Positions 39,118-57,946 of a stretch of 64,000 nt of DNA are shown here, piece after piece (position 1 is the first letter of the stretch; each line of letters starts with the position of its first letter). The stretch is taken from assembly GCF_024502345.1 (NCBI RefSeq), contig NZ_JALDNN010000001.1. One strand, written 5' to 3'. Origin of the DNA: Escherichia coli. Its GTDB lineage: Bacteria > Pseudomonadota > Gammaproteobacteria > Enterobacterales > Enterobacteriaceae. The notes beneath the pieces were generated by a model that was not told where the DNA came from, did not search any database, and saw only the letters and a program-made list of their open reading frames with translations. A program made the position numbers and the translations under genes.

Positions 39118-39204
39118 GCCCGGATGGTGGAATCGGTAGACACAAGGGATTTAAAATCCCTCGGCGTTCGCGCTGTGTGGGTTCAAGTCCCACTCCGGGT
39201 ACCA
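39118..39204 (+). tRNA. leuZ: tRNA-Leu (UAA anticodon), class II tRNA with long variable arm; integration site of the downstream island
   Basis: GCCCGGATGGTGGAATCGGTAGACACAAGGGATTTAAAATCCCTCGGCGTTCGCGCTGTGTGGGTTCAAGTCCCACTCCGGGTACCA. Confidence 0.9.
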
Positions 39205-43282: not shown

Positions 43283-43583
43283 CCCGTTATGAACAGGAAG
43301 AAAGCGGGCGGCTTTGTAATCTACAGCATGTGGTGTGCATCACAGCATGGAGATGATGTCTCTTTTTCCTGGCTGTTCGCATAAACAAGTGCAGACACGG
43401 GGGATCTCAGATCCCTCGTGATTTTTGCCCCCTATGGTGCATTCTTCTGTAGCAGGGTGATAACGGTTAATCCATTACCCCAACGACAGTATTACACCGG
43501 TAATAAATGTTCATGAATACAGTTAGTTATGTGGGTTTTGAGGTGGGCTATGTCATCGTTGACGATAACTGAAGGTTTTACAG

Positions 43584-43892: not shown

Positions 43893-44711
43893 CTACTCAA
43901 ATGATATTAATTTAGGTGCGACAGTGTTTTTATGACATGTTAAATTCGCAAGATCAATAATATCATGAAACAATTTTATGTCGTCGTCAGTGAGCTCTAC
44001 GTCTGGATCAGCTAAATCGGCACAGGTAACATTTAACCAGTGTGTTAATGAATCAATCCTGTTTGAAGTAATATATTCAGTGTGACCAATATCCCACTTC
44101 CAGTTGATCACCCGAGCAGGTCTGAATCTCACCTCCCGAACCCCAATTGGCGTTACTGACTCTACGAGAGGGTATATCGTGTTAAGTACTTTATCATGTT
44201 CACTGTAGATATTTAAATGCCCCATTTTTGAACCGTAAGCCATTTTCATTATGTTCTCTGTATAACTTGTTATTGGGGTGGCTCCGGCCATAGAGATTGT
44301 TAAGAGAATATTATCATTTTTAATATAGGGTAATGTATTGTTTATTAATCGAGTCCCTAAAGAATGACCCATTATGATCACATTACGCTTTTCTTTAACG
44401 TATATCTCGTTTATTACGTGTGCTAATTTTTCTCTGTTATTAACTGCTGCTTTCGTTGCATTATACCAGGCCTGACGCGCTTTAAATGGAATGGAGATTG
44501 ATGACAATAAAGGAGATGTTCTCAGGGGGAAGAGAGTATATAACCCCCACTTGTTCGCTATGTCAGAACTTAATATGGATAGTAGATTTGCCGATTCCCA
44601 TTTATAGTATCTGACATCAAGGCCACACCCTGCTTTAATTCGGTTAAACCATGATATATCATTTTCGGTCAGAAACCCTGATACAACAAGAAGAACCGGG
44701 CATTTTTTCAT
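43893..44711 (-). CDS. Alpha/beta-hydrolase-fold protein with GHSLG nucleophile elbow (esterase/lipase-like), function unknown
   Basis: 272-aa ORF; GxSxG motif GHSLG; candidate Asp/His downstream; immediately downstream of the WYL regulator gene. Confidence 0.6.
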   Translation of the reverse strand: MKKCPVLLVVSGFLTENDISWFNRIKAGCGLDVRYYKWESANLLSILSSDIANKWGLYTLFPLRTSPLLSSISIPFKARQAWYNATKAAVNNREKLAHVINEIYVKEKRNVIIMGHSLGTRLINNTLPYIKNDNILLTISMAGATPITSYTENIMKMAYGSKMGHLNIYSEHDKVLNTIYPLVESVTPIGVREVRFRPARVINWKWDIGHTEYITSNRIDSLTHWLNVTCADLADPDVELTDDDIKLFHDIIDLANLTCHKNTVAPKLISFE

Positions 44712-44772
44712 GGTAACTCCATTTTTTAGCTTACAAAAATAGCACTCAATGAAAATTATATTATCCGTGTCA

Positions 44773-45675
44773 TTACGGGGCGTTACTTGGCTGGGTGTAA
44801 CGTTTCAGTGCGGATTGTATATCTTCAGCAAGTTGTTGACGGATTGAGGCCGGTTGTATTACTTCGACATCCGGTATCCAGTATTTCATTAAAGGCATTA
44901 TCTGATCTGTGTGTGTTACACGTGATATCACCAGTAAATCGCCAGACCGGGAAGTATGAATTATTTCCTGTCCTGGCAATAGATGACGGTGGGTAAACCA
45001 CGGAGCAACATGTGCGGAAACTGAAATAAGAACTTCGATAAGGTCTTCGCTATACCAGATACCATCTGTCTTTTCTATTTTTTCATTAATTTCGGGGATT
45101 ATCCTGAAAGAGATATTACTCATGCAAACGTCTTTGACAGATGAGATAACAAAGCTTTTTAATGTACTGTCATGGGCGGCAGCGAGATACCACAATCCGT
45201 TGTCATTAACCAGCCTGTATGGCTCAACAGCCCGAAACTCTTTATCTTTGTAATTAAAATTTACTTTCTTCTGTGACAGGATGGCATCGGATAATACATT
45301 CAGAATTGACATGAATGATCCGCAGTTTTCGTATGGACGTTGTTTTATCAGAAACGGGTTGTTTTTCGTGTTACCTAACAAAATACTCAGTAGTCTGTCA
45401 TCCCAGCGAGGGAACAGCCCTTCAATACCCAGGATGCGCGTGAAATGACGTAAATCAGCATTGCTGCGTTGACCGAGAACACCGTCAGACAGGCGATAGC
45501 GACCATTTTGTCGAATCAGATTAAGATAGGACAGGCGCTGAGTAAGATCACGACGGATAGTTTTTTCGCAAACGTTAAATTCCTCAGATAACTCCCGGAC
45601 GGCTAGTGACTCACCATTGTTCAGGCGAGTTAATATCAATCCGAGTCGATATCCAAGTTTATCGTGCTTACCCAT
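44773..45675 (-). CDS. HTH + WYL-domain transcriptional regulator (BrxR/CapW-like, defence-island regulator family)
   Basis: 300-aa ORF; N-terminal DeoR-like HTH ([22 protein letters not shown]), central WYL-type segment ([10 protein letters not shown]). Confidence 0.65.
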
Positions 45676-45723
45676 TCGTTTATCCGGTTAATGCCAGCGA
45701 AGAGGATATTTTCAGCAAAGTAA

Positions 45724-45836
45724 CGGACAGGATGAGTCCACTTTTACTGTGACGGAGAAAAAAATTAACTCATTAATTATCAATATATTAAAACATTGCT
45801 GGAATCATCGAATAACATGTGGACTCATCCTGTCCA
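45724..45836. promoter_or_regulatory. Perfect 17-bp inverted repeat pair upstream of the WYL regulator gene (candidate operator)
   Basis: GGACAGGATGAGTCCAC at 45724-45740 and its exact reverse complement at 45820-45836. Confidence 0.45.
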
Positions 45837-46054
45837 TGTGTATTTTTACGTTCAGGGTGATAATTATTATCCTGACCTGTACATGACATGTTTTTGCTGC
45901 ATATTTGACCATGCACTTTTGCCATCAAGTCGGAGAGGCAGGGGGGAACGTAAGATCCGAAGGTTAGAGAGGTTATCAGCAATTACAATGATGATTAATA
46001 TTTTCATAATATCGGAGAACATCATATTAGTTGAAATAACATAAAGGTGGTTCT

Positions 46055-46381
46055 ATGTATTTACATATCAGAAAGTATCAACTCGTAAATGCGAGATGGC
46101 GTGATGTCATTGATCTGACAGATTATGAAGAAACAATCAGGCAGGTTGTCGGTACATTATTTGGAAATGATTTTATTGAGGTCAGCGTTGAAACAAATTG
46201 TTTTACTCTGACAGTAAACAGTACAAGCAGTAAAATACCACACGGCATACTGGTGAATATGGGGAAAAGGCTGGCGGCTAATCTCCAGAGTATCACCTGT
46301 CATGCCATGCGGATCTATCATGTAAATGGCCATCCTGACGCGCGGCAGTTATTTCACTGTTTTGATGCCGATTGCCTGTGA
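46055..46381 (+). CDS. Hypothetical protein
   Basis: 108-aa ORF convergent with the piPolB gene; weak support. Confidence 0.3.
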   Translation: MYLHIRKYQLVNARWRDVIDLTDYEETIRQVVGTLFGNDFIEVSVETNCFTLTVNSTSSKIPHGILVNMGKRLAANLQSITCHAMRIYHVNGHPDARQLFHCFDADCL

Positions 46382-46429
46382 TTAAGCCCCCAACTTCTGT
46401 TAAAGGAGTTGGGGGAGATTTAACGGTTA

Positions 46430-49093
46430 TCAGACTGGAAGACAGAATGTCGGATATTTACGGGCTATGATATCCATCAGTGACTTCATTCGCGGTGTTA
46501 CAGAACTAAATTTCATTTGGGGTATTTTTGCTCTTACCGCATTTTTTACATCAGTCACCGTTACTGAATAGCCTTCTGACGTCAGCCATTCAGCAACCTC
46601 TTTACAGGAATAACTTTTTTTATCTTTCAGCATCAGCCCCCATTGGCACTGAGTCAGCGCCCGGAGAAATAGTCTGACTAAAATATCATCACTACGTTTG
46701 CTTCCGACTTTTAGTTTCATATCAGAAAACACCGTCCGGCAATAGAGAAAATCACACCAGTCATCCCAGTCAGCCAGGGTCTTCAGTGTATGCGTTTGCC
46801 GCCAGTCGTCGAAAAGGGAGCGCTGCTGCAGAGCCTCTTCCATATTATCCCATGGGCGGGAAAACATCAGTAAATGCCCTTCATTCATGGCGGGCTGTAC
46901 GGGCTGGCGTTTGAAATCGAATTCCAGATTAAGACGGATATCCTGTTCCCGGGATACCAGATCGCTTTCCGACAGCCACATCTCACGCGTTGATATCAAC
47001 GTACTTCGGGATAAAGTCTGACCGGGTAAACGATTAAGGTAAAGATCTACCATATAGTCGTTATAGTCACTGCGTGGAATATCGGCAGGAGGTTTGACGC
47101 CAGCCCTGGCATGAACAACAGGTTTTCCCTGAATAGCTCTATAGGTTAACTGCCCCCGGGTTTTCATGGCGATAAGCTGGCTGACTTCATGCTTACATGT
47201 CAACATTGATGAACCCGGATCAACAATATCGCACAGCGACTGGAAGCGGGAAGACAGTGGACCGCTCATGTTTATCTTGTTAAGTGGGCAATTTGTCAAA
47301 AAGCCATCGGTTGTGACGCTGACAACCGATGAATCAGAAGGCAAAGCATTCATGAGTTCCCCGGCAACGGCGCGGATAAATCCCGTTACATGCGCAGCAA
47401 AGAATGGCTGAGTAACCGATGATGGTGGGAGGGATCTGTTTAATCCACGGGCAGTATCAAAGGCGGTTTTGGCGCGAAGGCCCTGAGCAAGTTTGCCATA
47501 AAGCGAGTTGCCAATTTCTTTCCAGAATTTCTCCTCCAGAGAACCTTTAATATGGCGATTACGGTTCTCACGGACCTGTTGAACAAAGGGAAGAAACACC
47601 GATGTTGATTCGCTGTTATGTGGGGAGGTGTCACAGATCCAGGGGACGATGATCCCATTATGGATCGTCATCTCTGCCCCGAGCGACAGAGCAAGTTCGA
47701 TTTCAGGTGCCGTTGCCCATGATTCGCCACTTAATGGAAAGAATAACCCATATTGATCGGTCCGAACCGGCAGGCTGGGATAGGGAACTGATTCCGGGAA
47801 CCGAAATGTGACAAGCGCAAATCCCATTACATGCCCACAGTAATCGTCCGGATTTTTACTGAGGCGGATGTTCCCGTAATCGGGTGTGAGGATATCTAAT
47901 AGCCCGGTGGTATACGCTCCAGCCAGATCGTAGTCATACCAGTGATCAGACGGTGTAACCCCCATCATAAAACACTCATTGCGTCCGCCGTGGTAACAGT
48001 TGATCGGGAACGTTTCAAACAACTCTCTTGAAGGAACACTGGCGGGGTTTTTAATCGTCCGGAATGCCTGTTTCTCCGTGAGCCAGAGTTCACGGGTTTT
48101 AATGTGTGTCCCAAGGCAGACTTCAGGAGACATATTGTTTTCTTTAAGTGTTTTGGTGAACCGTGAAACTGCCATCGCCCCGATGGTGGCGGGGACACGA
48201 TCAATCATCAGCTCCCGGGCGCAAAAATTGCGAACCTGTAAAGCATAACGAACCGCAATCTCGGCATCCCGCAGAGCATAGGCTTCAAACCCTGCTCTGT
48301 CGCCCAGAAGATATTCACGCATATTGGTTATGGAATAAGGTGCAGGAATGGTGAGTTTGGGAAGACCCAGTAATTCACCACATTCAGCCAGACCCATACC
48401 CCCGGGAGTGATAAGCAGTGTATCGATGAAAGCTACGTTACTGCAACGCGGAGGGGAAGTTCGTTTGTCAAACATTATCTGTTCAGTCTTTACGCGACGT
48501 TCCTGCTGTTCATCAAAATCGATACCGTAACGATTTTTGAAGCTGCTGACAGTACCGCGTATTCCTTTCAGAAGAATTTTGTAGTCTGACCAGAAATTGG
48601 CAAAGGAGGCGATATCCGCACGAATGAAATGCGCATATATATTAATAATACCGGGCCATTTTGTAATCACACCCGTTTCAAGAAGCGGTGTAATCGTTTG
48701 ACAGAGAAATTCCTTAAAAGACAGCCGGGATTTTTTCTGTGAGTCAGGTGGATAGATAATGTTCGATATACCTGTATTATCGGGTAAGATAACATAACTC
48801 TGATATGACAGAATATCATTCTGTCGTGTTTCAGGGTTGAAAACATATTCGGTATCAAAACCGATATGGAGTGTCAGGTCACTTGAAATAACAGATACTT
48901 TTTTTGATGCAGGTGGTATCACAGGATAATCATCAAGCGTTTTAGGTCTTTTACGATTGAGCGCTGGCTCTGAAGTCACGGACTGATACCCCGAGGCGGC
49001 AGCGAGGATGTCCTGCAAATTATTGCTCATAGTTAACTCCGAAAAAATGCCGGGAGCTGTGTCCCGGCATAAAGAATCAGGATTTAATAACAT
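46430..49093 (-). CDS. Family B DNA polymerase of the primer-independent (piPolB) type, pipolin hallmark gene
   Basis: 887-aa ORF; Exo I FDTE; motif B KEIGNSLYGK; motif C-like VTTDGF; KTRG in place of the canonical KxY motif (IAMKTRGQLTY). Confidence 0.8.
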   Translation of the reverse strand: MLLNPDSLCRDTAPGIFSELTMSNNLQDILAAASGYQSVTSEPALNRKRPKTLDDYPVIPPASKKVSVISSDLTLHIGFDTEYVFNPETRQNDILSYQSYVILPDNTGISNIIYPPDSQKKSRLSFKEFLCQTITPLLETGVITKWPGIINIYAHFIRADIASFANFWSDYKILLKGIRGTVSSFKNRYGIDFDEQQERRVKTEQIMFDKRTSPPRCSNVAFIDTLLITPGGMGLAECGELLGLPKLTIPAPYSITNMREYLLGDRAGFEAYALRDAEIAVRYALQVRNFCARELMIDRVPATIGAMAVSRFTKTLKENNMSPEVCLGTHIKTRELWLTEKQAFRTIKNPASVPSRELFETFPINCYHGGRNECFMMGVTPSDHWYDYDLAGAYTTGLLDILTPDYGNIRLSKNPDDYCGHVMGFALVTFRFPESVPYPSLPVRTDQYGLFFPLSGESWATAPEIELALSLGAEMTIHNGIIVPWICDTSPHNSESTSVFLPFVQQVRENRNRHIKGSLEEKFWKEIGNSLYGKLAQGLRAKTAFDTARGLNRSLPPSSVTQPFFAAHVTGFIRAVAGELMNALPSDSSVVSVTTDGFLTNCPLNKINMSGPLSSRFQSLCDIVDPGSSMLTCKHEVSQLIAMKTRGQLTYRAIQGKPVVHARAGVKPPADIPRSDYNDYMVDLYLNRLPGQTLSRSTLISTREMWLSESDLVSREQDIRLNLEFDFKRQPVQPAMNEGHLLMFSRPWDNMEEALQQRSLFDDWRQTHTLKTLADWDDWCDFLYCRTVFSDMKLKVGSKRSDDILVRLFLRALTQCQWGLMLKDKKSYSCKEVAEWLTSEGYSVTVTDVKNAVRAKIPQMKFSSVTPRMKSLMDIIARKYPTFCLPV

Positions 49094-49715
49094 TTACTAC
49101 AGATTTGAAAATATCGGTTTTGTGTGATTCATCATCTACATGGATAAAGGAAACGAGTTTCCTGCCTGCTTTAATCAGGATACCGCGTTGCGTCTTTTCC
49201 ACAGACGGGGTAACGTGTGCAGATAACAGACAATGTTCATGTAAATGAAGAAACTTTTTTGAGGCGTAGCCGCCATGTAATCGGGCTTGAATGTCAAGAT
49301 ACATATCATCAAGAGAACCGGGTTCTCCTGATTCACTCAATACCGGATAACCCTTCTTATCAAAGAGGTTAAGGATAGATTTACTATCATGTTCGAACAG
49401 GGTAACACCGTAAATGTATTTCATTCGAAAGGTGAGGGAATCGGTGGTGTAGACCTCCTCCTGACGATTGAAATTTTTGAGACGCCTGGCTAATTCATTA
49501 AAAACAGCACGAGCAGTAGCCGTGTCCTGCAGGGTGTAGGTATAAAGTACGAAGCCATCTGTGCCGATGAGCTTTACTAAGTTGTCCATAATCGTGATAG
49601 CGAGAACTAATGCAAAGGACAGATATTTTTCATCGTTGTCTACAGCTGTGTTTGCTGCTTCAGGAAGAATGTTCAGTGCATTATTAGCATTATTTGCTGT
49701 GTTCTTAGTAACCAT
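49077..49715 (-). CDS. Hypothetical protein, overlapping and probably translationally coupled to piPolB
   Basis: 212-aa ORF; stop overlaps the piPolB start; start overlaps the alpA-like stop. Confidence 0.5.
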   Translation of the reverse strand: MVTKNTANNANNALNILPEAANTAVDNDEKYLSFALVLAITIMDNLVKLIGTDGFVLYTYTLQDTATARAVFNELARRLKNFNRQEEVYTTDSLTFRMKYIYGVTLFEHDSKSILNLFDKKGYPVLSESGEPGSLDDMYLDIQARLHGGYASKKFLHLHEHCLLSAHVTPSVEKTQRGILIKAGRKLVSFIHVDDESHKTDIFKSVVNVIKS

Positions 49716-49905
49716 TTATATCACCTTTAAGTTTGTTTTGACGATGTGCATTTTCCCACTCAACAATATCATCAAGAGAGAATCGTATAGCCCGCCCAAT
49801 TCTGATGAAGGGCGGGAGTTTTCCTGGGTTGCGCGATATATCTGACGCAACCGTGGATGCGGAAAGATTAAATCTTTCTGCAAACTGCTTAATGGTTAAA
49901 TACAT
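49705..49905 (-). CDS. AlpA-family HTH protein (excisionase / transcriptional regulator)
   Basis: 66-aa ORF, MYLTIKQFAERFNLSASTV...; typical partner of integrases in islands. Confidence 0.65.
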   Translation of the reverse strand: MYLTIKQFAERFNLSASTVASDISRNPGKLPPFIRIGRAIRFSLDDIVEWENAHRQNKLKGDINGY

Positions 49906-50055
49906 AAACCTCCGGTTTTAGAGAAGAAGAAACCACGCGGATTTAATATCAATCCACATTCTTTGATGACTTAATGCAGGGCCCTGCAGAAGCATGCAAT
50001 GACAATACCGTCCTTAAACGAGTGTTGCATCAATCACGAATCACAGATCATAGGT

Positions 50056-51186
50056 TCATTTTTTCGTGTCATAACTTTCTATGACCTGAGAAACCACTGC
50101 GTGCGATGTCGCTGCATTGTGAAAAGCGTAGCGACGGGTCGCCGTGAGTGAATGGTGATTTAGCAGATGGGAAGCGATTGCAATATCCCCGGTCGCCTGT
50201 AGTACCCGGGTGGCAAAGGTACGGCGCAGGTCATGCATCCGCAGGTTATCAATGTTGGCATCCCGACAAATACGGGCAAAGGTTGCACGCGGATATGCCA
50301 GAGGGCGGGCATTGTCGGTTAGTTGTGGAAAAATGTAAGTTTTGCTGAGCATCAGGTCTTGCTGGCACTGGACAACTGCAATGGCTGGAGGTGCAAGTGG
50401 GCAGGTGAAAGGGTGTCCGGACTTTGTATCAGGCAGTATGAGTTGATGCATATCCGGGTGCCAGTACTCCCATTTCAGGGTACATACCTCACCAATACGC
50501 ATCCCCGTATAAAGAGCAAGCAATATAGAATCAGCTGCCGGTGTTTGCAGCGCTGTTGCCGCGTCAATAAAGCGCGGGATTTCTGTCGCTGATAGTGTGC
50601 GATAGCGAATGTTATTTTCTTTCAGATAGCGGACATGTGACATCGGGGAATGTGTGATCCATCCAGCACGTACTGCCAGAGAGCATATTTTGGACAATAT
50701 TGCGAGGATACGGTTTACTGTTGACGGACGTAATTTTTCCCGTAAGCCAGCAGCATATTGTTCTAGTTCCCCTGCCGTGATGTCGCGAAGTTGCCGCTTG
50801 CCCCAGAACGGGCGAACGTAGAGGTTGAGTTTTGACAACTCTGACTGAGGACTCTTTTTATACAACTGCAAATCCGGTAGCCACAGGTCATTGATGGCCT
50901 GTTCCACAGTGAATCGACGGGACTGAACCGCAAGACGATTTTTATCAGCAAGCAGTTTCATCACATGCTGACGGGCATCCTCAACGCAGAGCTGAGGGAA
51001 CTGACCCAGGGTTTCATATATACGCTGATTGTTTATAGTGGCACGAAAGGCCAGCGTGATCCGATTGGGATACACCAGAGCACGCAGGTTTTGGCAGTGA
51101 ATATCACGGTATTCCTGACAACCCGTGAGGGGATGTGGAAGTTGGTGAAGTGATTTGTTGCTGAAACGCAGATCCAGAATAGGCAT
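50056..51186 (-). CDS. Second tyrosine recombinase (XerC/D-like integrase)
   Basis: C-terminal catalytic motifs HDLRRTFATR, LLNHH, TATRRYAF. Confidence 0.8.
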   Translation of the reverse strand: MPILDLRFSNKSLHQLPHPLTGCQEYRDIHCQNLRALVYPNRITLAFRATINNQRIYETLGQFPQLCVEDARQHVMKLLADKNRLAVQSRRFTVEQAINDLWLPDLQLYKKSPQSELSKLNLYVRPFWGKRQLRDITAGELEQYAAGLREKLRPSTVNRILAILSKICSLAVRAGWITHSPMSHVRYLKENNIRYRTLSATEIPRFIDAATALQTPAADSILLALYTGMRIGEVCTLKWEYWHPDMHQLILPDTKSGHPFTCPLAPPAIAVVQCQQDLMLSKTYIFPQLTDNARPLAYPRATFARICRDANIDNLRMHDLRRTFATRVLQATGDIAIASHLLNHHSLTATRRYAFHNAATSHAVVSQVIESYDTKK

Positions 51187-51329
51187 CGTATTTCTCCTGT
51201 AAATGACACTGGAAAAATACGATGTGAGGTTATAGTCTGCCAGTTACAGCTTTCACAGTTCATCAGGTGAAAAAACGCAGATTCGGATATAATGGCAACA
51301 CAATTCCATGTCGCCATTATATTAAGAAA

Positions 51330-52460
51330 CTACAGTTTCATGATCTTGTTCGCTATTTTTTCGAAGTAAACCTCATTCTTAAGAAGAGTGATATTGTTTG
51401 TTTGAACACCCAGACCACTGGAGGTTGACTGGAAGTTGAGTGAACCACTTATCACTGTGGACTTTCCTGATAAAAATGAAATCAACTCCTTGGAAGATGG
51501 TGCCCACTCAGGGTTTAAGAGTAATGCAATATAGATATATGTCTTACGAAGCAATTGTTCTATATCTTTTTTATGCCCTGTAGTGTTTTGCTTACCTTTA
51601 ATGCAAATAGATTTGATTATGAACTCATCAGGGCTGGTTAAAGGCGTTTTAAACTCACTCAGTGATCCATCGTTATGAATGACTTCATAAGGCAGCATAG
51701 ATAAAATGATCAATGCAATCATTTTAGGATGATAAAGGTAGTTATCACGAATGATTTTTCCTGCCTTCATTGTATTGAGCGTTGTTTGAATAAATACAAA
51801 AAGATATTCAGAGCAAAAGTAACAAAACACAAGCCAGGATAGGTCAATGGATGGAATGTTAATATCCTTAGGTAGTTTGTTTAGCCAGTATTCAGACTTC
51901 AAAAAGGTCCTGATTTCAACAGTATATTCATGCATTTTTGCGCTGAAATCAAGCATTGCTACTTGACCTGATTGTTCCGTAACTGTGTGGTCTATAAATG
52001 TTAGTGTATTGCACATTTTATCCAGCGTGTTTTGAAAACAAGAAAGGAGTTCGGCATTATTATTACCATTAACCGCAGATGAAAGTTCAGTTTTAATAAA
52101 TGCATCCAGTAGCATACAGATTTCTTTCGGAATGACATTTTTACGGGATTGCTGTGAATAGAAATGTACTGCCAGTAAATTAAAGGCAGTGCACTCCTTT
52201 TTTAACCATTGTTCGAGCACTGGGACGTGCTGAAAAAAATTGATATGCTTAGCAGTAGATGCTGATGGAGATAGTACATGAAGAATATCTACAGCAGGCT
52301 TCATTTGCAATATTTGATCGGATTCGGTAGTCGTCATTAGTTCCAGTAATTGCTGTTCAGAAAATAGTTTAGACAGGTGATCAATGTCTTTTTGGTATTG
52401 ATTAAGTTTTGTTAAATTCCCCGGTATACGGGTTACATTGTTTTTCATTTTCTCGAACAT
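51330..52460 (-). CDS. Hypothetical protein (AT-rich gene, no recognisable motifs)
   Basis: 376-aa ORF, Lys/Asn/Ile-rich; long uninterrupted frame in a strongly AT-rich stretch. Confidence 0.5.
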   Translation of the reverse strand: MFEKMKNNVTRIPGNLTKLNQYQKDIDHLSKLFSEQQLLELMTTTESDQILQMKPAVDILHVLSPSASTAKHINFFQHVPVLEQWLKKECTAFNLLAVHFYSQQSRKNVIPKEICMLLDAFIKTELSSAVNGNNNAELLSCFQNTLDKMCNTLTFIDHTVTEQSGQVAMLDFSAKMHEYTVEIRTFLKSEYWLNKLPKDINIPSIDLSWLVFCYFCSEYLFVFIQTTLNTMKAGKIIRDNYLYHPKMIALIILSMLPYEVIHNDGSLSEFKTPLTSPDEFIIKSICIKGKQNTTGHKKDIEQLLRKTYIYIALLLNPEWAPSSKELISFLSGKSTVISGSLNFQSTSSGLGVQTNNITLLKNEVYFEKIANKIMKL

Positions 52461-52966
52461 AATTTTATCCTCGTTTGAATTATTACACTGATTTAAAAAG
52501 TAGCATGTCGTGTTAGCGAGGTAATCCTAAAACGTGAATGGCAGCAGGGGCAAGCTTGAATCTGCGTAAGGATATGGCTTGAATTTAATGGTGTAATCAG
52601 TGAGTTAGAGGCTTATAGCCATTTAAATACAATAAGTTATGATAATATATGGCGGGTGTAAATCGGTTAGTTTTTATGGTTAAAATATGAGCATTGTGAG
52701 ATTTGAGATATGATGGTTTTTAAATTACATACAAGTTACCCCTGATGATCAGTATTAATACCAGAATGATACATGCGAGCAGCACCCAATCCTGTACTAT
52801 TTATGATGGCTATACAAGGCTGAAACTTTGAGTCGTATGTTGCCAGGAGGATTAATGTCCACAAGGCCCAGATAGAATGATTTCTCAGATATTAAAGTTG
52901 AAACTTATTAACTATGTGAGAGGCTGATATTTATTCAGTCTCTCATTTGTTTTTATCGTTTTAAAG

Positions 52967-54202
52967 TTAAAAGGAAATAAATAATGCCTTCCGCCGATGA
53001 ATCAGTGTACTGATTTCTCGAAAATCAGCCTCAATACTACCAACATCACCAAAGACTTCACCACTAATCTCTCTTCGATTTTTCATGAAATTGGTGCTTA
53101 ATAAGCTTTCTTTTTTTAGTGTCACTAATTTTGGTTTTATATCGTTATAGAAATGCTTACGGCTTACCCTGATGCTATGAATCGAGTAGTAAACTGTTTT
53201 ATACATCAAAAATATAAGTAACTGGCCGAGAAGATATTCTTTTTCAATGTATTTATATTGAGAGGATTTTTCGCGTTTCGCCAGGTAGAAAACATGAGGT
53301 GCGATGATGGTGGGGATGAAATCCAGTGCTGGAGAGGTTTTGGTTTTTTCTGTTTCTCTTCCGGATTGAAGATGTTGAAGTACAGAGTATACAATGCTTA
53401 AAATTATGGCGTTACTTATATTATTAATTGCAGTTGGGTAAATATGCAGATTGCTTATCAATTCTGAAAGGCAAAGTAAAACACCAGTGATGTTGGGTTT
53501 TCTGCCGGAGATTGTGGTGCTGTTGAAAATGTGACGATTCTTACGACTTATATTGACAAGTTTATGAGTGCAGAACTCTATATGTTCGACGATTTTATCT
53601 TGACTATTTTTAATGTATTTTGAAATGTTAGTGATCCGGCCATTCAACGTTAGTTCATCAAGCAATATATCATTTTTAATATTGCGAATTTCATCGCAAT
53701 GTTCACATTGAGAAACTATCTCATGTAATACATAACTCGACGTATTGCGGGGTGACGCTGATATGTAATCTAAAATAGAAGGCTCGATTTTGATTTTTTG
53801 TTTGTATTTTTTAATGCACTGTTTGATTGTTTTTTGTAGAGTATTTGAGATGTGTTTTTTATATTCTTTTAGAAAATCTTGCTCTAAAAAGAGTGAGGAG
53901 AAGATCAACTGCTGGCGAGATAATTTAATCTCAGGCTTGATCAATTTAATCCGAAAAACTCTTCCCTCCAACTCATAGCTGAACATGGAAGATAAGTCAT
54001 AGTGGGGTGATAAATGTTCGAGTAACGACATTCGTGTATTCATTAGCCGCTTGAATTTATGGTCAGCATACATAAGTGTTTTTTTTATTTGCTCATCATA
54101 AAGTGGGCCGATAGCGCAGTTGGCAATACTCATTCTATCCGGAGACCTCCAGTCAGCAGGGGAATCACATTGACGGTCATCATTACTATCAAAGGGCATC
54201 AA
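52967..54202 (-). CDS. Hypothetical protein (AT-rich gene, no recognisable motifs)
   Basis: 411-aa ORF, similar composition to the preceding gene; divergent from hsdM. Confidence 0.5.
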   Translation of the reverse strand: MMPFDSNDDRQCDSPADWRSPDRMSIANCAIGPLYDEQIKKTLMYADHKFKRLMNTRMSLLEHLSPHYDLSSMFSYELEGRVFRIKLIKPEIKLSRQQLIFSSLFLEQDFLKEYKKHISNTLQKTIKQCIKKYKQKIKIEPSILDYISASPRNTSSYVLHEIVSQCEHCDEIRNIKNDILLDELTLNGRITNISKYIKNSQDKIVEHIEFCTHKLVNISRKNRHIFNSTTISGRKPNITGVLLCLSELISNLHIYPTAINNISNAIILSIVYSVLQHLQSGRETEKTKTSPALDFIPTIIAPHVFYLAKREKSSQYKYIEKEYLLGQLLIFLMYKTVYYSIHSIRVSRKHFYNDIKPKLVTLKKESLLSTNFMKNRREISGEVFGDVGSIEADFREISTLIHRRKALFISF

Positions 54203-54505
54203 CGTTGCCGATTATGGATCATGTCAGCTCCACACACCAGAACGGGTGATATATGGATCATCATTACCCCAACGGCAGTTTTACACCATGGCTAATATGG
54301 ATGCTATCTTACTAAGATAATTGGTTTTTAGCGAGTGACGAGCCCGGTTGTGTCAGTCTGTCTCATGTCGATATTACGGGGATGATGCAAACCTGAATGC
54401 TGCGATATTGGCGTGTCAGGGGAGGCATCTTACGGTATCATTTACCGCAATTTTTAAGATGCAAAGCCCTGCATCGCTAGCTTTTTCTTCAGACCAGGAT
54501 GATTC

Positions 54506-56029
54506 ATGAACGACAAAATCAGTCAGGACACGATCAACAAAGCCCTGTGGGCCGCGTGTGATACGTTCCGTGGCACCATCAGTGCTGATACCTATAAAGA
54601 CTTTATCCTTACCATGCTATTCCTTAAGTACATTTCGGATGTCTGGCAGGATCACTACGACGAATATAAAGTGCAATATGGTGATGAGCCGGAACTGATT
54701 GAAGCGATGATGGCGAACGAGCGCTTCGTGTTGCCGAAAAGCGCCAGTTTCTATGCGTTGTACGAGCGACGTCATGAGCCGGGCAACGGTGAGCGTATCG
54801 ATCAGGCGCTGCATGCGATTGAAGAAGCCAACGGCACCAAACTGAAAGATGCCGGGAAAAGTGTCTTCCAGGATATTTCGTTTAACACTGACCGTCTGGG
54901 CGAAGAAAAACAGAAGAACACCATCCTGCGTCAGTTGCTGGAAGACTTTGCCGGTGAAGATCTTAACCTGAAGCCAAGCCGTGTCGGTACGCTGGACGTT
55001 ATCGGTAATGCTTACGAATATCTGATCAAAAACTTTGCTGCCAGCGGTGGGCAGAAAGCCGGGGAATTCTATACCCCACCGGAAGTTTCGGATCTCATCG
55101 CTGAACTGCTTGATCCTCAACCCGGTGATACAATCTGCGACCCGGCCTGTGGTTCCGGTTCGTTGCTAATGAAGTGCGGGCGTAAAATTGTCTCAGGACA
55201 TGATAGCCGCAACTATGCGTTGTTCGGTCAGGAAGCGATTGGCTCCACGTGGTCGCTGGCGAAAATGAACATGTTCCTGCACGGCGAAGATAACCACAAA
55301 ATCGAGTGGGGCGATACCATTCGTAACCCGAAGTTGTTGGATAAAAACGGCGACCTGATGCTGTTTGATATCGTGACCGCAAACCCACCGTTCAGCCTGG
55401 ATAAGTGGGGCCATGACGAGGCCGAGAATGATAAGTTTGGGCGTTTCCGTCGCGGTGTACCGCCGAAGACTAAAGGGGATTACGCCTTTATCTCGCATAT
55501 GATCGAAACCCTGAAACCGGGAACGGGTCGTATGGGCGTAGTGGTGCCGCACGGTGTGCTGTTCCGTGGCTCCAGCGAAGGCAAAATTCGTCAGAAGCTG
55601 ATTGATGAAAACCTACTCGATGCGGTGATTGGCCTGCCTGAAAAACTGTTCTACGGTACGGGTATTCCTGCTGCAATTCTGATTTTTAAAAAGCAGAAAG
55701 TGGATGACAAGGTGCTGTTTATCGACGCCAGCCGTGAATTTAAGGCAGGTAAAAACCAGAACCAGCTCAGCGCAGAAAACATCGAGAAAATCGTCAAGAC
55801 CTACCGTGATGGCGATAGCGTCGAGAAATATGCCTACCTTGCCAGCCTGAAGGAGATTCAGGACAACGATTACAACCTCAATATTCCGCGCTATGTCGAT
55901 ACCTTTGAAGAAGAAGAAGATATCGATTTACTTGCCGTTCGTGCTGAGCGGGAGGAATTGAAAGCGGAACTGGCGAAATTGGAAACGCAGATGGCGGGTT
56001 ATCTGGAGGAGCTGGGTTATGGTGCCTAA
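54506..56029 (+). CDS. hsdM: Type I restriction-modification system methyltransferase subunit HsdM
   Basis: 507-aa ORF; SAM-binding motif DPACGSGSLL and catalytic NPPF (TANPPFSLDKW). Confidence 0.9.
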   Translation: MNDKISQDTINKALWAACDTFRGTISADTYKDFILTMLFLKYISDVWQDHYDEYKVQYGDEPELIEAMMANERFVLPKSASFYALYERRHEPGNGERIDQALHAIEEANGTKLKDAGKSVFQDISFNTDRLGEEKQKNTILRQLLEDFAGEDLNLKPSRVGTLDVIGNAYEYLIKNFAASGGQKAGEFYTPPEVSDLIAELLDPQPGDTICDPACGSGSLLMKCGRKIVSGHDSRNYALFGQEAIGSTWSLAKMNMFLHGEDNHKIEWGDTIRNPKLLDKNGDLMLFDIVTANPPFSLDKWGHDEAENDKFGRFRRGVPPKTKGDYAFISHMIETLKPGTGRMGVVVPHGVLFRGSSEGKIRQKLIDENLLDAVIGLPEKLFYGTGIPAAILIFKKQKVDDKVLFIDASREFKAGKNQNQLSAENIEKIVKTYRDGDSVEKYAYLASLKEIQDNDYNLNIPRYVDTFEEEEDIDLLAVRAEREELKAELAKLETQMAGYLEELGYGA

Positions 56030-57266
56030 GGGGTGGAAACGAGTACCGATTAAGGATGTGTGCGAGTCTATAATCGATTGCGTAAATAAAACAGCTCCAG
56101 TTGTTGATTATGAAACTCCCTTTAAGATGATTCGTACCACGAATGTACGTAATGGAAGGGTTAATACTGAAGACGTCAGATATGTGACTGAAGACACTTA
56201 CCTGCAATGGGTTCGACGCGGAAAACCGCAAGTAGGTGATATCATCTTTACACGTGAAGCACCTGTAGGAGAAGCAGGTGTCCTGCAAGATGCTGAAGGT
56301 ATTTTCCTCGGGCAAAGAACGATGATGTATCGAGCTGATACCTGCCTTTCAGATAACTATTTCTTGTTCTACTCGTTATCAAGTCCCTTCTGCCAGAAAC
56401 AAATTGAAGATTTTAGCAATGGCGGTACTGTAGCTCATATGAGAGTTCCAGATTGCGGTGAGATATTGATCAATCTACCGCCTTTCCTCGAACAAAAGAA
56501 AATCGCCCAAATCCTGTCAACCTGGGATAAGGCGATTTCGGTGACGGAAAAGCTTCTCACCAACAGCCAGCAGCAGAAAAAAGCCCTGATGCAGCAATTG
56601 CTTACTGGGAAGAAACGCTTGCTGGATGAGAATGGGACAAGGTTTTCTGAAACTTGGAAATTATATGCCTTATCGAAATTATTTCAGAGAGTTACGACTA
56701 AAAACAATGGAAAAAGCAACAATGTTGTAACCATTTCTGGACAACATGGTTTGATTAAACAGGAAGACTTTTTCAAGAAAACAGTCGCATCAGATACCCT
56801 TGATGGTTATTTCTTATTAAAAAAAGGGCAGTTTGCTTACAATAAAAGTTACTCTAATGGTTATCCGATGGGTGCAATAAAAAGATTAAATCGATATCCA
56901 GAGGGAGTAGTAACAACTCTGTATATATGTTTTGAACTTACTACACCCAAAAAATCATGTGGTGACTATTGGGAGCATTATTTTGAGTCAGGGCTTTTGA
57001 ATAACAGTTTGTCTCAAATTGCTCATGAAGGTGGACGGGCTCATGGCTTGCTAAATGTAAAACCTTCGGACTTCTTTTCATTAAAAGTTGCGGTTCCTGG
57101 CTTTGAAGAGCAACAAAAAATCGCATTAGTTCTGTCCGCTGCCGACACCGAAATCTCCACACTGGAGAAAAAACTCGCCTGCCTGAAAGACGAGAAGAAA
57201 GCCTTGATGCAGCAACTGCTGACCGGGAAACGTCGGGTGAAAGTGGATGAGGCGGTTGCCGTATGA
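56019..57266 (+). CDS. hsdS: Type I restriction-modification system specificity subunit HsdS
   Basis: 415-aa ORF with two target-recognition domains separated by conserved repeats (KKALMQQLLTGKKRLL and KKALMQQLLTGKRRVK); overlaps the hsdM end. Confidence 0.85.
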   Translation: MVPKGWKRVPIKDVCESIIDCVNKTAPVVDYETPFKMIRTTNVRNGRVNTEDVRYVTEDTYLQWVRRGKPQVGDIIFTREAPVGEAGVLQDAEGIFLGQRTMMYRADTCLSDNYFLFYSLSSPFCQKQIEDFSNGGTVAHMRVPDCGEILINLPPFLEQKKIAQILSTWDKAISVTEKLLTNSQQQKKALMQQLLTGKKRLLDENGTRFSETWKLYALSKLFQRVTTKNNGKSNNVVTISGQHGLIKQEDFFKKTVASDTLDGYFLLKKGQFAYNKSYSNGYPMGAIKRLNRYPEGVVTTLYICFELTTPKKSCGDYWEHYFESGLLNNSLSQIAHEGGRAHGLLNVKPSDFFSLKVAVPGFEEQQKIALVLSAADTEISTLEKKLACLKDEKKALMQQLLTGKRRVKVDEAVAV

Positions 57267-57946
57267 AACTGACGAAAAGCGGTCCACTGACTGACCGGGA
57301 AATCGACTGGCTGGAAGAAATATTAATGAAGTATGGAATGGATGATTCTGTACTCTGTTTCTCTGAGCTGGATGGATTGCTGACGGCGATTTTATCAGGT
57401 CCAAATATGGTTTCACCCAATATCTGGCTGAGTGCTATTTGGGGAGGAGGCGATTATCATCCGAAATGGTCATCTGAGAGAGAGATGGAGCGTTTTGTCA
57501 GTCTGTGTTTTCAGCATATGAACGATATCGCTGGTTGCCTTTATGACGCCCCTGAACTGTTTGAGCCGATTTTCAATGAGCGTGAGGTAAAGGGGGAAAA
57601 ATATACCATTGTGGAAGAGTGGTGTTTTGGTTATATGAAAGGAAAGTCACTGGATGACTGGTCTGGTCTTCCCGGTGAGTTACGGCCTTCTCTGGAAGTG
57701 ATCGCTCTTCATGGCGTGGAGAAGAATTTTCCTGTACTTGAGAAAATGACCGGAGAGCAGTTTGAGAAAAGTATTTCCCTTATTCAGCCTGCTGCACTGG
57801 CACTTTATCAGTACTGGTTGTCAGTGAGAATGTCAGAGGCATCATCCCGGCCTGTTCCAGTGAAGGGGGCAGAAAACATGCCCGGGCGAAATGACCCGTG
57901 TCCGTGTGGCAGCGGTAAAAAATTTAAGAAGTGCTGTCTGCATTGA
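57263..57946 (+). CDS. YecA-like (UPF0149) protein with C-terminal SEC-C zinc motif, embedded in the Type I R-M operon
   Basis: 227-aa ORF; C-terminal GRNDPCPCGSGKKFKKCCLH; start overlaps the hsdS stop (ATGA). Confidence 0.8.
   Translation: MKLTKSGPLTDREIDWLEEILMKYGMDDSVLCFSELDGLLTAILSGPNMVSPNIWLSAIWGGGDYHPKWSSEREMERFVSLCFQHMNDIAGCLYDAPELFEPIFNEREVKGEKYTIVEEWCFGYMKGKSLDDWSGLPGELRPSLEVIALHGVEKNFPVLEKMTGEQFEKSISLIQPAALALYQYWLSVRMSEASSRPVPVKGAENMPGRNDPCPCGSGKKFKKCCLH

What the first reader, a model, noticed from the sequence alone, without database searches (positions are those of the whole stretch)
51330..54202. Two large co-oriented ORFs of unknown function in a strongly AT-rich block
ORFs of 376 and 411 aa are encoded on the minus strand, upstream of the second tyrosine recombinase and divergent from hsdM. 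Both are Lys/Asn/Ile-rich with no Walker, nuclease, or other motifs I can recognise. Their composition differs sharply from the host core, consistent with recent acquisition from a low-GC donor. Position among restriction systems suggests a defence, anti-defence, or abortive-infection role. A roughly 500-bp AT-rich non-coding gap (52461-52966) separates them and may carry its own promoter or a small RNA.
Basis: partly seen in the sequence, partly recalled or inferred. Interest (0 to 1): 0.65.

Follow-up and report, generated by a model that had tools for sequence, protein, structure and literature searches.

The report
Orphan gene pair inside E. coli pipolin
The two AT-rich ORFs are real, conserved genes of unknown function that sit in a highly variable slot beside the second integrase of a pipolin (a known self-replicating mobile island of E. 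coli) and are not part of the neighbouring restriction system; their function is still unknown.

Summary
Both ORFs exist, are 35-36% GC against about 51% for the host, and are under purifying selection (dN/dS 0.07-0.25). ORF-B most likely starts 23 codons later than listed (52967-54133, 388 aa).

The window is an E. coli pipolin at tRNA-Leu, with IntSXT, DUF2787, a WYL regulator, piPolB (SVTTDG and KH-X8-KTRG motifs), an excisionase, IntP2 and type I R-M cargo.

- **ORF-A** is a family found only in Enterobacterales. In every IntP2-type pipolin examined it lies immediately upstream of IntP2. Its alleles are deeply divergent: 32-47% identity where IntP2 is 91% and piPolB 87%.
- **ORF-B** is an extreme orphan (8 hits among 1.84 billion representative proteins). 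It is optional, and once sits upstream of a different integrase in a piPolB-less island.

Neither protein matches Pfam, NCBIfam, PADLOC, PHROGs, PDB or any known fold. Both look like soluble all-alpha proteins.

The 506-bp gap shows no known RNA family and no unusual structure. It contains one hairpin and a poorly conserved region just upstream of ORF-A.

A 27-nt direct repeat specific to pipolins brackets the whole ORF-B-to-WYL/DUF726 module.

My best guess (about 0.4) is that these are element-specific, non-enzymatic partner-recognition proteins tied to the IntP2/Xis/piPolB module. A defence role (about 0.25) is not excluded.

The parts
51330..52460 (-). ORF-A, 376 aa. Pipolin-restricted, soluble all-alpha protein. 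Blocks 21-40, 241-260 and 301-340 are conserved; the middle (121-180) is hypervariable; the loop motif GKxNxTG (288-295) is invariant.
   Evidence: ORF and SD GAGGA. dN/dS 0.15-0.25. Homologues only in Enterobacterales. Always directly upstream of IntP2. AF2 pLDDT 75 with no fold match. Conservation by region. No TM helix.
52461..52966 (.). 506-bp AT-rich intergenic gap. It probably holds the ORF-B terminator region and the ORF-A promoter and 5' UTR. No conserved RNA was detected.
   Evidence: No Rfam match. Folding z-scores +0.55 and -1.05. Only ORFs of 42 aa or less. Identity to C. amalonaticus drops to 62-71% at 52500-52700. The gap is 304 bp in Edwardsiella.
52916..52946 (.). 12-bp-stem hairpin 20 nt after the ORF-B stop codon. 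The T-tract lies on the + strand side, so it may be a bidirectional or + strand terminator.
   Evidence: Terminator scan; sequence; present in both MFE folds.
52967..54133 (-). ORF-B, most likely 388 aa from the MSI start (the open frame extends to 54202). Basic, all-alpha orphan protein with conserved motif SGRxPNITG.
   Evidence: 8 hits in 1.84e9 representatives. Start site. dN/dS 0.07-0.23. AF2 pLDDT 39, unusable.
54262..54288 (-). DR1: 27-nt motif TGGTGTAAAACTGCCGTTGGGGTAATG, 216-220 nt from the hsdM start and 65-90 nt (tblastn hit offsets) upstream of the first gene of the slot in other elements; in this window about 128 nt upstream of the ORF-B MSI start.
   Evidence: Motif identity 0.96 against 0.42-0.49 for the inner flank.
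43473..43499 (-). DR2: second copy of the motif in direct orientation (3 mismatches), 194-196 nt from the DUF2787 stop. With DR1 it brackets ORF-B, ORF-A, IntP2, Xis, p212, piPolB, p108, WYL and DUF726.
   Evidence: (family D2).
50056..51186 (-). IntP2-type tyrosine recombinase, the 'second recombinase' immediately downstream of ORF-A.
   Evidence: 'IntP2' naming follows PMC11551731.
49705..49905 (-). Excisionase/AlpA-like HTH protein, 66 aa.
   Evidence: TIGR01764 excise, E 3.5e-5 (below the curated cutoff). HTH_17 in homologues.
49077..49715 (-). 212-aa orphan overlapping both Xis and piPolB; fast-evolving backbone gene.
   Evidence: 30-47% identity where piPolB is 66-71%. No family hit.
46430..49093 (-). 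piPolB, the primer-independent family B DNA polymerase that is the pipolin hallmark.
   Evidence: Translation contains SVTTDG and KH-X8-KTRG, the motifs described in PMC5695915. RefSeq calls it 'DNA polymerase'. Weak DNA_pol_B_2 hit.
44773..45675 (-). HTH-WYL regulator of the pipolin core.
54506..56029 (+). hsdM, first gene of the type I R-M cargo (hsdM-hsdS-PDC-S12/YecA-like-hsdR), divergent from ORF-B.
39118..39204 (+). tRNA-Leu(taa), the pipolin integration site next to pgsA.
   Evidence: Integration site as stated in PMC11551731.
40237..41484 (+). IntSXT-type integrase of the pipolin, next to the tRNA.

Best explanation
**Context (shown, confidence about 0.9).** The two ORFs are genuine protein-coding genes of an E. 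coli pipolin integrated at tRNA-Leu. They fill a 2.8-kb AT-rich, hypervariable slot. One side of the slot is a conserved 27-nt repeat (DR1) next to the type I R-M cargo. The other side is the IntP2 recombinase, followed by the excisionase, p212 and piPolB. ORF-A occupied this slot in every enterobacterial IntP2-type pipolin examined. ORF-B is an optional orphan found only together with two ORF-A clades.

**Mechanism (inferred, about 0.4).** Both are soluble, non-enzymatic alpha-helical proteins that work by binding. ORF-A has conserved N- and C-terminal blocks, which suggest a scaffold role. Its hypervariable central helices would then recognise a variable partner. That partner could be a protein of a phage or competing element, or type-specific DNA just upstream. 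Binding would gate or protect the adjacent IntP2/Xis/piPolB mobilisation-replication module, in the way the hypervariable regulators next to the integrases of phage satellites work. ORF-B is possibly a distant paralogue that adds a second specificity. They are not subunits or regulators of the R-M system.
For: **Pipolin identity.**
- tRNA-Leu beside pgsA; IntSXT, DUF2787, WYL, IntP2, excisionase and 'DNA polymerase' in the published order.
- piPolB motifs SVTTDG and KH-X8-KTRG.
- Published core and bimodular description.

**Real genes.**
- dN/dS 0.07-0.25.

**Fixed synteny of ORF-A with IntP2.**
- Seen in Serratia, Enterobacter, Edwardsiella, Buttiauxella, Citrobacter, Intestinirhabdus and metagenome contigs, regardless of cargo.

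**Restricted to pipolins.**
- 61 ORF-A homologues, all named ones from Enterobacterales.
- Neither protein has a relative in phage genomes, and ORF-A has none in IMG/VR contigs.
- On plasmids, only an IS1-cut 94-codon remnant of ORF-A dragged along with the R-M genes; no trace of ORF-B.

**Allelic replacement.**
- An E. coli pipolin with IntP2 91%, Xis 95% and piPolB 87% identity has ORF-A at 32-47%. It shows no DNA similarity between window 54471 and 51263.
- Against the 375-aa-type elements, dN is 0.64 for ORF-A, 0.15 for IntP2 and 0.22 for piPolB.

**Modular conservation.**
- Between-clade identity is 0.57-0.75 in blocks 21-40, 241-260 and 301-340. It is 0.22-0.24 in residues 121-180.
- The DNA immediately upstream is specific to each ORF-A type.

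**ORF-B and integrases.**
- Its most divergent homologue (45%) sits directly upstream of a different tyrosine integrase plus a DUF927 protein. That island is pipolin-like but lacks piPolB.

**No enzymatic or membrane signature.**
- No catalytic family hit in Pfam, NCBIfam, PADLOC or PHROGs, and no PDB sequence hit.
- No TM helix: apparent insertion free energy +1.7 kcal/mol or higher, mostly +3 or above.
Against: - No direct evidence for any binding partner or regulatory effect.
- No HTH or other DNA-binding domain was detected in ORF-A, which is charge-neutral with an acidic candidate 'recognition' helix.
- ORF-A and ORF-B are separated by 506 bp and a hairpin, so they are probably not one operon. 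Their paralogy is only weakly indicated: hhalign P 0.027, and cross-HMM scores of 4.6-6.7 bits against a shuffle maximum of 4.8.
- Truncated alleles are common. A 354-aa ORF-B form has 1082 member sequences, and ORF-A is frameshifted in L025 and strain G8. The genes are therefore dispensable for keeping the element.
- AT-rich composition, orphan status and a position next to defence cargo fit a defence or abortive-infection gene equally well.
Confidence: 0.4

Rival explanations
1. One reading: ORF-A and/or ORF-B are anti-phage defence or abortive-infection proteins that benefit the host. They would occupy an integrase-adjacent hotspot like those of P4-like satellites and P2-like prophages.
For: - Pipolins are described as defence islands.
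- The slot borders the type I R-M/PDC-S12 cargo.
- The genes are AT-rich orphans, as many Abi genes are (my own knowledge).
- ORF-A shows deep allelic diversity reshuffled relative to the backbone.
- ORF-B is patchily present.
- Truncated alleles are frequent, which is typical of accessory genes.
Against: - No PADLOC hit at E up to 1.
- The AbiJ_NTD4 hit is at chance level: E 0.03, and only 2 of 7 members at E of 0.1 or better.
- The slot always holds the same family rather than alternating unrelated systems.
- ORF-A is absent from the phage, plasmid and viral-contig collections, and ORF-B from the phage and plasmid collections. Genuine pipolin defence cargo is reported to be exchanged with other elements.
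- No effector-like domain (nuclease, pore, NADase) was found.
Confidence: 0.25
2. They are anti-defence or inter-element exclusion proteins that help the pipolin establish itself in new hosts or keep out rival elements at the same tRNA-Leu site.
For: - Hypervariable middle region with a conserved scaffold.
- Position at one end of the DR-bracketed module.
- ORF-B is basic, with 61 K+R against 44 D+E.
- No catalytic motif.
Against: - No similarity to any known anti-restriction or anti-defence family or fold.
- At 376-388 aa they are much larger than typical anti-restriction proteins (my own knowledge).
- No evidence of early expression.
Confidence: 0.12
3. They are decaying, H-NS-silenced selfish remnants with no current function.
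For: - About 35% GC.
- Common truncated or frameshifted alleles.
- One strain has deleted the whole block without any evident consequence.
Against: - Purifying selection in every comparison (dN/dS 0.07-0.25), including across genera.
- Invariant motifs are retained at 36% identity.
- Intact strong Shine-Dalgarno sequences.
Confidence: 0.07
4. ORF-A is a membrane-inserting helical effector, similar to the SLATT/DUF4231 two-TM effector domain.
For: - Weak Foldseek hits are dominated by transporters.
Against: - The best 19-residue windows have apparent insertion free energy of +1.7 to +7.8 kcal/mol in all 24 ORF-A family members, against -2.5 for LacY.
- Charged residues sit in the middle of the most hydrophobic helix.
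Confidence: 0.03
5. The ORFs are untranslated chance frames in AT-rich DNA.
For: None beyond the AT-rich composition.
Against: - Probability of about 4e-12 per frame.
- dN/dS far below 1 in frame, and about 1-2 out of frame.
- Conserved homologues down to 36% identity across genera.
Confidence: 0.005

Closest known systems
Enterobacterial pipolins (piPolB-encoding integrative elements at tRNA-Leu; Redrejo-Rodriguez 2017 PMC5695915; Flament-Simon 2020 PMC7385651; Mateo-Caceres and Redrejo-Rodriguez 2024 PMC11551731)
   Same: The window has the published integration site. It has the published core: IntSXT, DUF2787, WYL, piPolB, and IntP2 followed by an excisionase. It also has the published bimodular layout with type I R-M/PDC-S12 cargo. 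The literature already notes that pipolins carry 'orphan' genes and lists two unnamed orphan proteins among six core markers.
   Different: The papers I could read do not name or describe these two proteins. They do not report that ORF-A is the hypervariable occupant of the IntP2-upstream slot, and they do not mention the 27-nt internal direct repeats. The att repeats they describe are derived from the tRNA.
Integrase-adjacent hypervariable loci of phage satellites and prophages (SaPI/PICI Stl-type regulators; P4/P2 defence hotspots). This comparison rests on my own knowledge and was not tested here.
   Same: A gene next to the integrase of an integrative element. It is present in all relatives but exists in deeply divergent alleles, flanked by conserved backbone.
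   Different: ORF-A shows no detectable HTH and no sequence or fold similarity to Stl or to any hotspot system. It is co-oriented with the integrase rather than divergent from it. The slot always holds the same family rather than unrelated systems.
Lactococcal-type abortive infection genes (AT-rich orphan one- or two-gene systems, e.g. AbiJ)
   Same: Low GC, orphan status, no recognisable domains, carried on a mobile element.
   Different: The only link, a Pfam AbiJ_NTD4 match, is at chance level. There is no toxicity or phage data, and the two genes are 506 bp apart rather than forming a tight operon.

Membership tests
Pipolin (the element that contains the ORFs) | Encodes a piPolB: a family B polymerase with the SxTTDG PolC variant and the KH-X8-KTRG motif | tested here: met
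   The 887-aa ORF 46430-49093 contains SVTTDG and KHEVSQLIAMKTRG. Motifs are as defined in PMC5695915. RefSeq calls it 'DNA polymerase'. Pfam DNA_pol_B_2 is only weak, E 0.015.
Pipolin (the element that contains the ORFs) | Integrated at tRNA-Leu next to pgsA, with the enterobacterial core genes IntSXT, DUF2787, WYL and IntP2 plus excisionase | tested here: met
   Published core. The second tRNA-derived att repeat lies outside the window and was not examined.
Type I restriction-modification system | ORF-A or ORF-B is homologous to HsdR, HsdM, HsdS or a known accessory, and travels with the R-M genes | tested here: not met
   No family hits. ORF-A keeps its position where the R-M genes are replaced by helicase, methylase and ResIII genes in Serratia. 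On a Klebsiella plasmid the R-M genes moved with only a truncated ORF-A stub.
Known or candidate anti-phage defence systems (PADLOC-DB 2.0) | Match to a PADLOC protein model | tested here: not met
   No families at E up to 1 for either protein. As positive controls in the same window, the YecA-like gene hits PDC-S12 and the WYL regulator hits WYL models.
AbiJ abortive infection protein | Significant AbiJ N-terminal domain match shared by the family | tested here: not met
   AbiJ_NTD4 at E 0.03 in the window protein. Only 2 of 7 members reach E of 0.1 and none reaches 0.001.
Two-gene toxin-antitoxin or Abi operon | Tightly linked, co-transcribed gene pair that always co-occurs | tested here: not met
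   A 506-bp gap with a hairpin after ORF-B. ORF-A occurs without ORF-B in most genera, and an ORF-B homologue occurs without ORF-A.
SLATT/DUF4231 two-TM effectors | Two transmembrane helices | tested here: not met
Stl-like or repressor-type element regulator | Recognisable DNA-binding (HTH) domain and cognate operators | tested here: inconclusive
   No HTH found by Pfam, NCBIfam or fold search. The AF2 model shows a helix-helix-beta-hairpin at residues 15-53 and the upstream DNA is type-specific. DNA binding cannot be tested with these tools.
attL/attR pair of a tyrosine recombinase (for the 27-nt direct repeats) | Direct repeats flanking a module that encodes an integrase and an excisionase, with divergent interior and conserved exterior | tested here: met
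   Two same-strand copies per element in all complete loci. Motif identity is 0.90-0.96. At DR1 the inner flank (0.42-0.49) is clearly less conserved than the outer flank (0.73-0.77); at DR2 the difference is small (inner 0.57-0.61, outer 0.64-0.67).
attL/attR pair of a tyrosine recombinase (for the 27-nt direct repeats) | Existence of recombinant junctions: an empty attB-type site or a circular attP-type junction | tested here: not met
   No attB-type junction in 5426 E. coli genomes; the only DUF2787-hsdM junction, in strain I4, keeps both repeats. No attP pattern in metagenome contigs. All 36 interpretable metagenome hits and all hits among 100,044 species genomes are native junctions. Assemblies rarely capture excised forms, so this is weak negative evidence.

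The most novel reading that the evidence does not exclude
The 27-nt direct repeats would be the attachment sites of IntP2/Xis. The 'core' of enterobacterial pipolins would then be a nested, separately excisable 9-11 kb mini-element: ORF-A (with or without ORF-B), IntP2, Xis, p212, piPolB and WYL. It would sit inside an IntSXT defence island. ORF-A would be its hypervariable specificity or control factor. This would explain why pipolins carry two recombinases, and why the inner and outer modules differ in divergence. Between the window and C. amalonaticus, inner genes have dS of about 0.05 against 0.46-0.72 for outer genes. Against the other types the pattern reverses: inner genes are saturated and outer genes have dS of about 0.5.
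Probability: 0.25. Interest if true: 0.75.

Novelty: new member of a known kind. Interest (0 to 1): 0.4.

Why it matters
Pipolins are a recently recognised class of self-replicating defence islands. How they are mobilised, and what their second recombinase does, is unknown.

This analysis gives three concrete handles on that biology:
- ORF-A is the only hypervariable backbone-linked gene, and it is always next to IntP2.
- A strictly conserved, pipolin-specific 27-nt repeat pair brackets the piPolB module.
- Both points can be tested directly by inverse PCR for a circular junction and by deleting ORF-A.

The two proteins also define families with no detectable sequence or fold relatives, so a structure or phenotype would be new information. 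If they turn out to be ordinary accessory genes, the result is still useful: it stops them being mis-filed as part of the type I R-M system.

Tried and rejected
- **AbiJ_NTD4 (ORF-B), TagK and NBAS (ORF-A).** Chance-level matches not shared by family members.
- **Remote homology.** A profile of ORF-B against 1.84e9 representatives gave only 8 close or fragmentary hits. A profile of ORF-A found only Enterobacterales. PDB profile searches gave nothing at E up to 10.
- **Fold search for ORF-A.** Only generic helical bundles. The ORF-B model was too poor to search (pLDDT 39).
- **Membrane protein idea.** Rejected.
- **PD-(D/E)xK and HEPN Rx4-6H motifs in ORF-A.** The candidate residues are not conserved across the alignment (inspection).
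- **ORF-A/ORF-B paralogy.** Only a weak shared loop motif; inconclusive.
- **Small RNA in the gap.** No Rfam hit, no significant structure, poor conservation.
- **'hsdM was recently exchanged'.** Withdrawn: its dS is 0.44-0.60, so it is simply highly constrained.
- **Sharp identity breakpoint at DR1 against C. amalonaticus.** Not seen; the region is mosaic.
- **attB and attP junction searches.** Negative.
- **Strain I4.** It looked like an empty site but keeps both repeats. Its junction has a 6-bp microhomology, so it is read as a secondary deletion.
- **The repeat as a relic of the tRNA-derived att.** No copy near tRNA-Leu, even allowing 6 mismatches.


Full report
**Observation.** The ORF list shows minus-strand ORFs at 51330-52460 (376 aa, ATG) and 52967-54202 (411 aa, TTG). 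A 506-bp gap separates them. A tyrosine recombinase (50056-51186) lies downstream and hsdM (54506-56029, + strand) is divergent upstream. GC is 0.358, 0.348 and 0.348 for ORF-A, the gap and ORF-B. The flanking IntP2 and hsdM are at 0.50 and the host side of the window is at 0.51. The AT-rich block ends exactly at 51330 and 54133. With the local base composition, a stop-free run of this length has probability about 4e-12.

**The ORFs are genes.** Codon-aligned comparisons with orthologues give the following:

| Gene | Comparison | dN/dS |
|---|---|---|
| ORF-A | C. amalonaticus | 0.25 |
| ORF-A | Edwardsiella | 0.15 |
| ORF-B | five comparisons | 0.07-0.23 |

A run in which I mistakenly took ORF-B out of frame gave 0.9-2.0, a useful internal control. 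All ORF-B homologues begin at 'MSI', residue 23 of the E. coli frame. That ATG (window 54133) has GGAGG 12 nt upstream. All 11 substitutions seen in the 22 upstream codons are non-synonymous, and database entries use the MSI start. ORF-B is therefore most likely 52967-54133, 388 aa.

**Where the ORFs sit.**
- The 3.3-kb region is present at over 99% identity in E. coli chromosomes and is annotated 'hypothetical protein' twice.
- Annotation of one such genome and the tRNA scan place the window downstream of pgsA and tRNA-Gly/Cys/Leu.
- Gene order from tRNA-Leu is: an integrase, DUF2787, a WYL regulator, a 'DNA polymerase', a 212-aa protein, an excisionase-like HTH, and a second recombinase. Then come ORF-A, ORF-B, and a type I R-M system with an embedded YecA-like gene (PADLOC PDC-S12).
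- The 887-aa polymerase carries SVTTDG and KH-X8-KTRG. These are the motifs that define primer-independent PolB (PMC5695915).
- This is the published enterobacterial pipolin. The integration site, the IntSXT plus IntP2-excisionase pair, DUF2787, WYL, and the 'bimodular' conserved core plus exchangeable defence cargo all match (PMC11551731; PMC7385651).
- Among 5426 complete E. coli genomes, full-length matches number 281 for piPolB, 233 for this ORF-A allele and 248 for ORF-B.

**ORF-A.**
- Sequence and profile searches find only Enterobacterales proteins of 372-382 aa, down to 35% identity, none with a Pfam domain.
- In every locus I could read, the ORF-A homologue lies immediately upstream of, and co-oriented with, IntP2 -> HTH/Xis -> ~200-aa protein -> piPolB. 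These loci come from Serratia, E. hormaechei, Edwardsiella, Buttiauxella, Citrobacter, Intestinirhabdus, further E. coli and metagenome contigs.
- This holds whether the neighbour on the other side is hsdM or a UvrD/PDDEXK-methylase-ResIII set. In Serratia a 54-aa stub of hsdM remains there.
- ORF-A is absent from phage genomes and IMG/VR contigs.
- On plasmids it appears only as a 94-codon stub cut by IS1, next to a transferred copy of the R-M system.
- It evolves unlike its neighbours. Against the 375-aa-type elements, dN is 0.64, compared with 0.15 for IntP2 and 0.22 for piPolB.
- In one E. coli pipolin with IntP2 91%, Xis 95% and piPolB 87% identical to the window, ORF-A is only 32-47% identical and frameshifted. 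There is no DNA similarity at all between window 54471 and 51263. This is allelic replacement of a cassette, not clock-like drift.
- Between clades, residues 21-40, 241-260 and 301-340 are conserved (0.57-0.75). Residues 121-180 are hypervariable (0.22-0.24).
- The AF2 model (pLDDT 75, pTM 0.68) is all-alpha. An invariant GKxNxTG motif lies in a low-confidence loop.
- No segment has membrane-insertion propensity.

**ORF-B.**
- A profile search of 1.84 billion representative proteins returned 8 hits, all close relatives or fragments. PDB, Pfam, NCBIfam, PADLOC and PHROGs gave nothing credible.
- It is present only in elements carrying ORF-A clades 1 and 2 (E. coli, Citrobacter, Intestinirhabdus, Franconibacter, Edwardsiella, Salmonella). 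It is absent from the Serratia, E. hormaechei and Buttiauxella types.
- Its most divergent homologue (45%, also about 33% GC) lies directly upstream of a different tyrosine integrase followed by a DUF927 protein. That island has IntSXT, DUF2787, p177 and WYL relatives but no piPolB and no ORF-A. The literature mentions such 'piPolB-less pipolin-like islands'.
- A 354-aa C-terminally truncated allele accounts for 1082 database sequences.
- The AF2 model is unusable (pLDDT 39) but predicts an all-alpha protein. Its helix-helix-beta-hairpin-long-helix order resembles that of ORF-A.
- ORF-A GKxNxTG and ORF-B SGRxPNITG align (hhalign P 0.027). Cross-HMM scores (4.6-6.7 bits) slightly exceed all shuffles (maximum 4.8). 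Paralogy is possible but not established.

**The gap.**
- No Rfam family matches at E up to 1.
- Folding energies are ordinary, with z-scores of +0.55 and -1.05.
- It holds only ORFs of 42 aa or less, and promoter-like hits are fewer than in shuffles.
- A 12-bp-stem hairpin at 52916-52946 follows the ORF-B stop codon. Its T-tract is on the + strand side.
- Against C. amalonaticus, the half nearest ORF-B is 90-95% identical. The 250 bp upstream of ORF-A is only 62-71% identical, the least conserved DNA in the region.
- The gap is 304 bp in Edwardsiella.
- The simplest reading is an ORF-B terminator plus a type-specific ORF-A promoter and leader. This is an inference.

**An unexpected feature.**
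- Aligning upstream regions showed an invariant 27-nt motif, TGGTGTAAAACTGCCGTTGGGGTAATG. It lies upstream of ORF-B in E. coli but directly upstream of ORF-A where ORF-B is absent.
- The window has exactly two copies, in direct orientation: 54262-54288 and 43473-43499. The number expected by chance is 0.00.
- Together they bracket ORF-B, ORF-A, IntP2, Xis, p212, piPolB, p108, WYL and DUF726.
- The same pair occurs in every complete pipolin locus.
- Across one genome from each of 100,044 species, the motif occurs in only 16 stretches. Fifteen are on Enterobacterales contigs; one is a 2.7-kb contig labelled Candidatus Nanosynbacter that carries the same hsdM. All lie in this context.
- In metagenomes, 36 of the 38 stretches returned have the same two contexts.
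- Motif identity is 0.96 (DR1) and 0.90 (DR2). The inner flank of DR1 is at 0.42-0.49 and the outer flanks at 0.64-0.77.
- Inner and outer genes differ in divergence:

| Comparison | Inner genes (dS) | Outer genes (dS) |
|---|---|---|
| Window vs C. amalonaticus | about 0.05 (piPolB, WYL, Xis) | 0.46-0.72 (hsdM, DUF2787, IntSXT) |
| Window vs other types | saturated | about 0.5 |

- This is the pattern expected of attL/attR sites around a separately mobile module that encodes an integrase and an excisionase. I found no recombinant junction, however.
- The single E. coli genome lacking the module (strain I4) keeps both repeats, and its junction has a 6-bp microhomology.
- An explicit attP pattern was absent from metagenomes.
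- The pipolin papers I read mention only tRNA-derived att repeats.
- The repeat could equally be an operator, for example for the WYL regulator. I leave it as unexplained and put the att reading at about 0.25.

**Interpretation.**
- Shown: the ORFs are real genes. They belong to a pipolin, not to the R-M system. ORF-A is pipolin-specific, was found next to IntP2 in every locus examined, and is hypervariable by allelic replacement. ORF-B is an optional orphan also found next to an integrase elsewhere. Neither has a detectable enzymatic, membrane or known defence signature.
- Inferred (about 0.4): they are binding proteins whose variable parts recognise a variable partner. Through that recognition they control or protect the adjacent IntP2/Xis/piPolB module.
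- The main rival (about 0.25) is a defence or Abi function. AT-richness, orphan status, dispensability and the neighbourhood favour it. Confinement to one element family and a slot always occupied by the same family count against it.
- Anti-defence or exclusion (0.12), decaying remnants (0.07), a membrane effector (0.03) and chance ORFs (below 0.01) follow.

**Novelty and score.** The element type is known, and the genes are already deposited as hypothetical proteins. The literature acknowledges orphan core genes without describing them. The finding is therefore a new, uncharacterised member of a known kind, of moderate interest (0.4). The interest comes mainly from two points that make the unexplained role of IntP2 in pipolins experimentally testable: ORF-A's hypervariability next to IntP2, and the conserved repeat pair.

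Noticed in passing
window 54262-54288 and 43473-43499 (also L002, L004, L006, L019, L025, L046, L053): A pipolin-specific 27-nt direct repeat (consensus GGTGTAAaACtGcCGTTGGGGTAAtg, with weaker similarity extending to about 45-57 nt) brackets the IntP2/piPolB module in every element. It is far more conserved than its flanks. The pipolin papers I read do not mention it.
   Followed up: partly
L007 (E. coli strain I4, NZ_CP195978) against window 43616-54139: One complete genome has lost the whole ORF-B-to-DUF726 block but keeps both 27-nt repeats 259 bp apart. The junction shows a CGCAGA/CGGAGA microhomology, and its right end is 6 nt upstream of the ORF-B MSI start codon.
   Followed up: yes
L027 5450-10385: A piPolB-less pipolin-like island (IntSXT, DUF2787, p177 and WYL relatives). 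An ORF-B homologue sits upstream of a different tyrosine integrase and a DUF927 protein. The 27-nt motif is not detectable there.
   Followed up: partly
window 57263-57946: The YecA/SEC-C-like gene embedded between hsdS and hsdR matches the PADLOC candidate defence model PDC-S12 (E 4e-99).
   Followed up: no
window 49705-49905: The excisionase/AlpA-like 66-aa protein also matches the PADLOC model 'mad1' (mads_1), E 8e-9.
   Followed up: no
window 45725-45741 and 45819-45835: A perfect 17-nt inverted repeat (GGACAGGATGAGTCCAC) with a 77-nt spacer. It lies in the intergenic region between the WYL regulator and the 108-aa gene and could be an operator.
   Followed up: no
window 43396-43428: A GC-rich hairpin (CACGGGGGATCTCAGATCCCTCGTG) followed by ATTTTTG, just downstream of DUF2787 and just outside DR2. 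It is conserved across genera and looks like the terminator of the DUF2787 operon.
   Followed up: no
window 16245-17012; L047 and L064: A 768-bp element in the window, IS1-sized, is about 91% identical to a sequence inserted at window-equivalent position 54211 (the ORF-B leader) in two metagenome contigs. IS1 also interrupts this region in strain NCTC9080, and it truncates ORF-A on a Klebsiella plasmid (L024).
   Followed up: partly
L002 9530-9694 (Serratia marcescens): A 54-aa ORF is a remnant of the hsdM 5' end. It shows that the type I R-M cargo was replaced by UvrD/PDDEXK helicase, N6/N4 methylase and ResIII genes through a break inside hsdM.
   Followed up: partly
window 49077-49715: The 212-aa orphan that overlaps both Xis and piPolB evolves almost as fast as ORF-A (30-31% identity where piPolB is 71%). 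It has no family hit, and its role next to the polymerase is unknown.
   Followed up: no
Foldseek hit A0A2T5DWI5 (Vibrio splendidus, 371 aa): This is the only non-family structural hit for ORF-A (E 0.15, probability 0.82) and it has the same length. It might be the ORF-A counterpart in Vibrio pipolins, but I could not retrieve its sequence or context.
   Followed up: no
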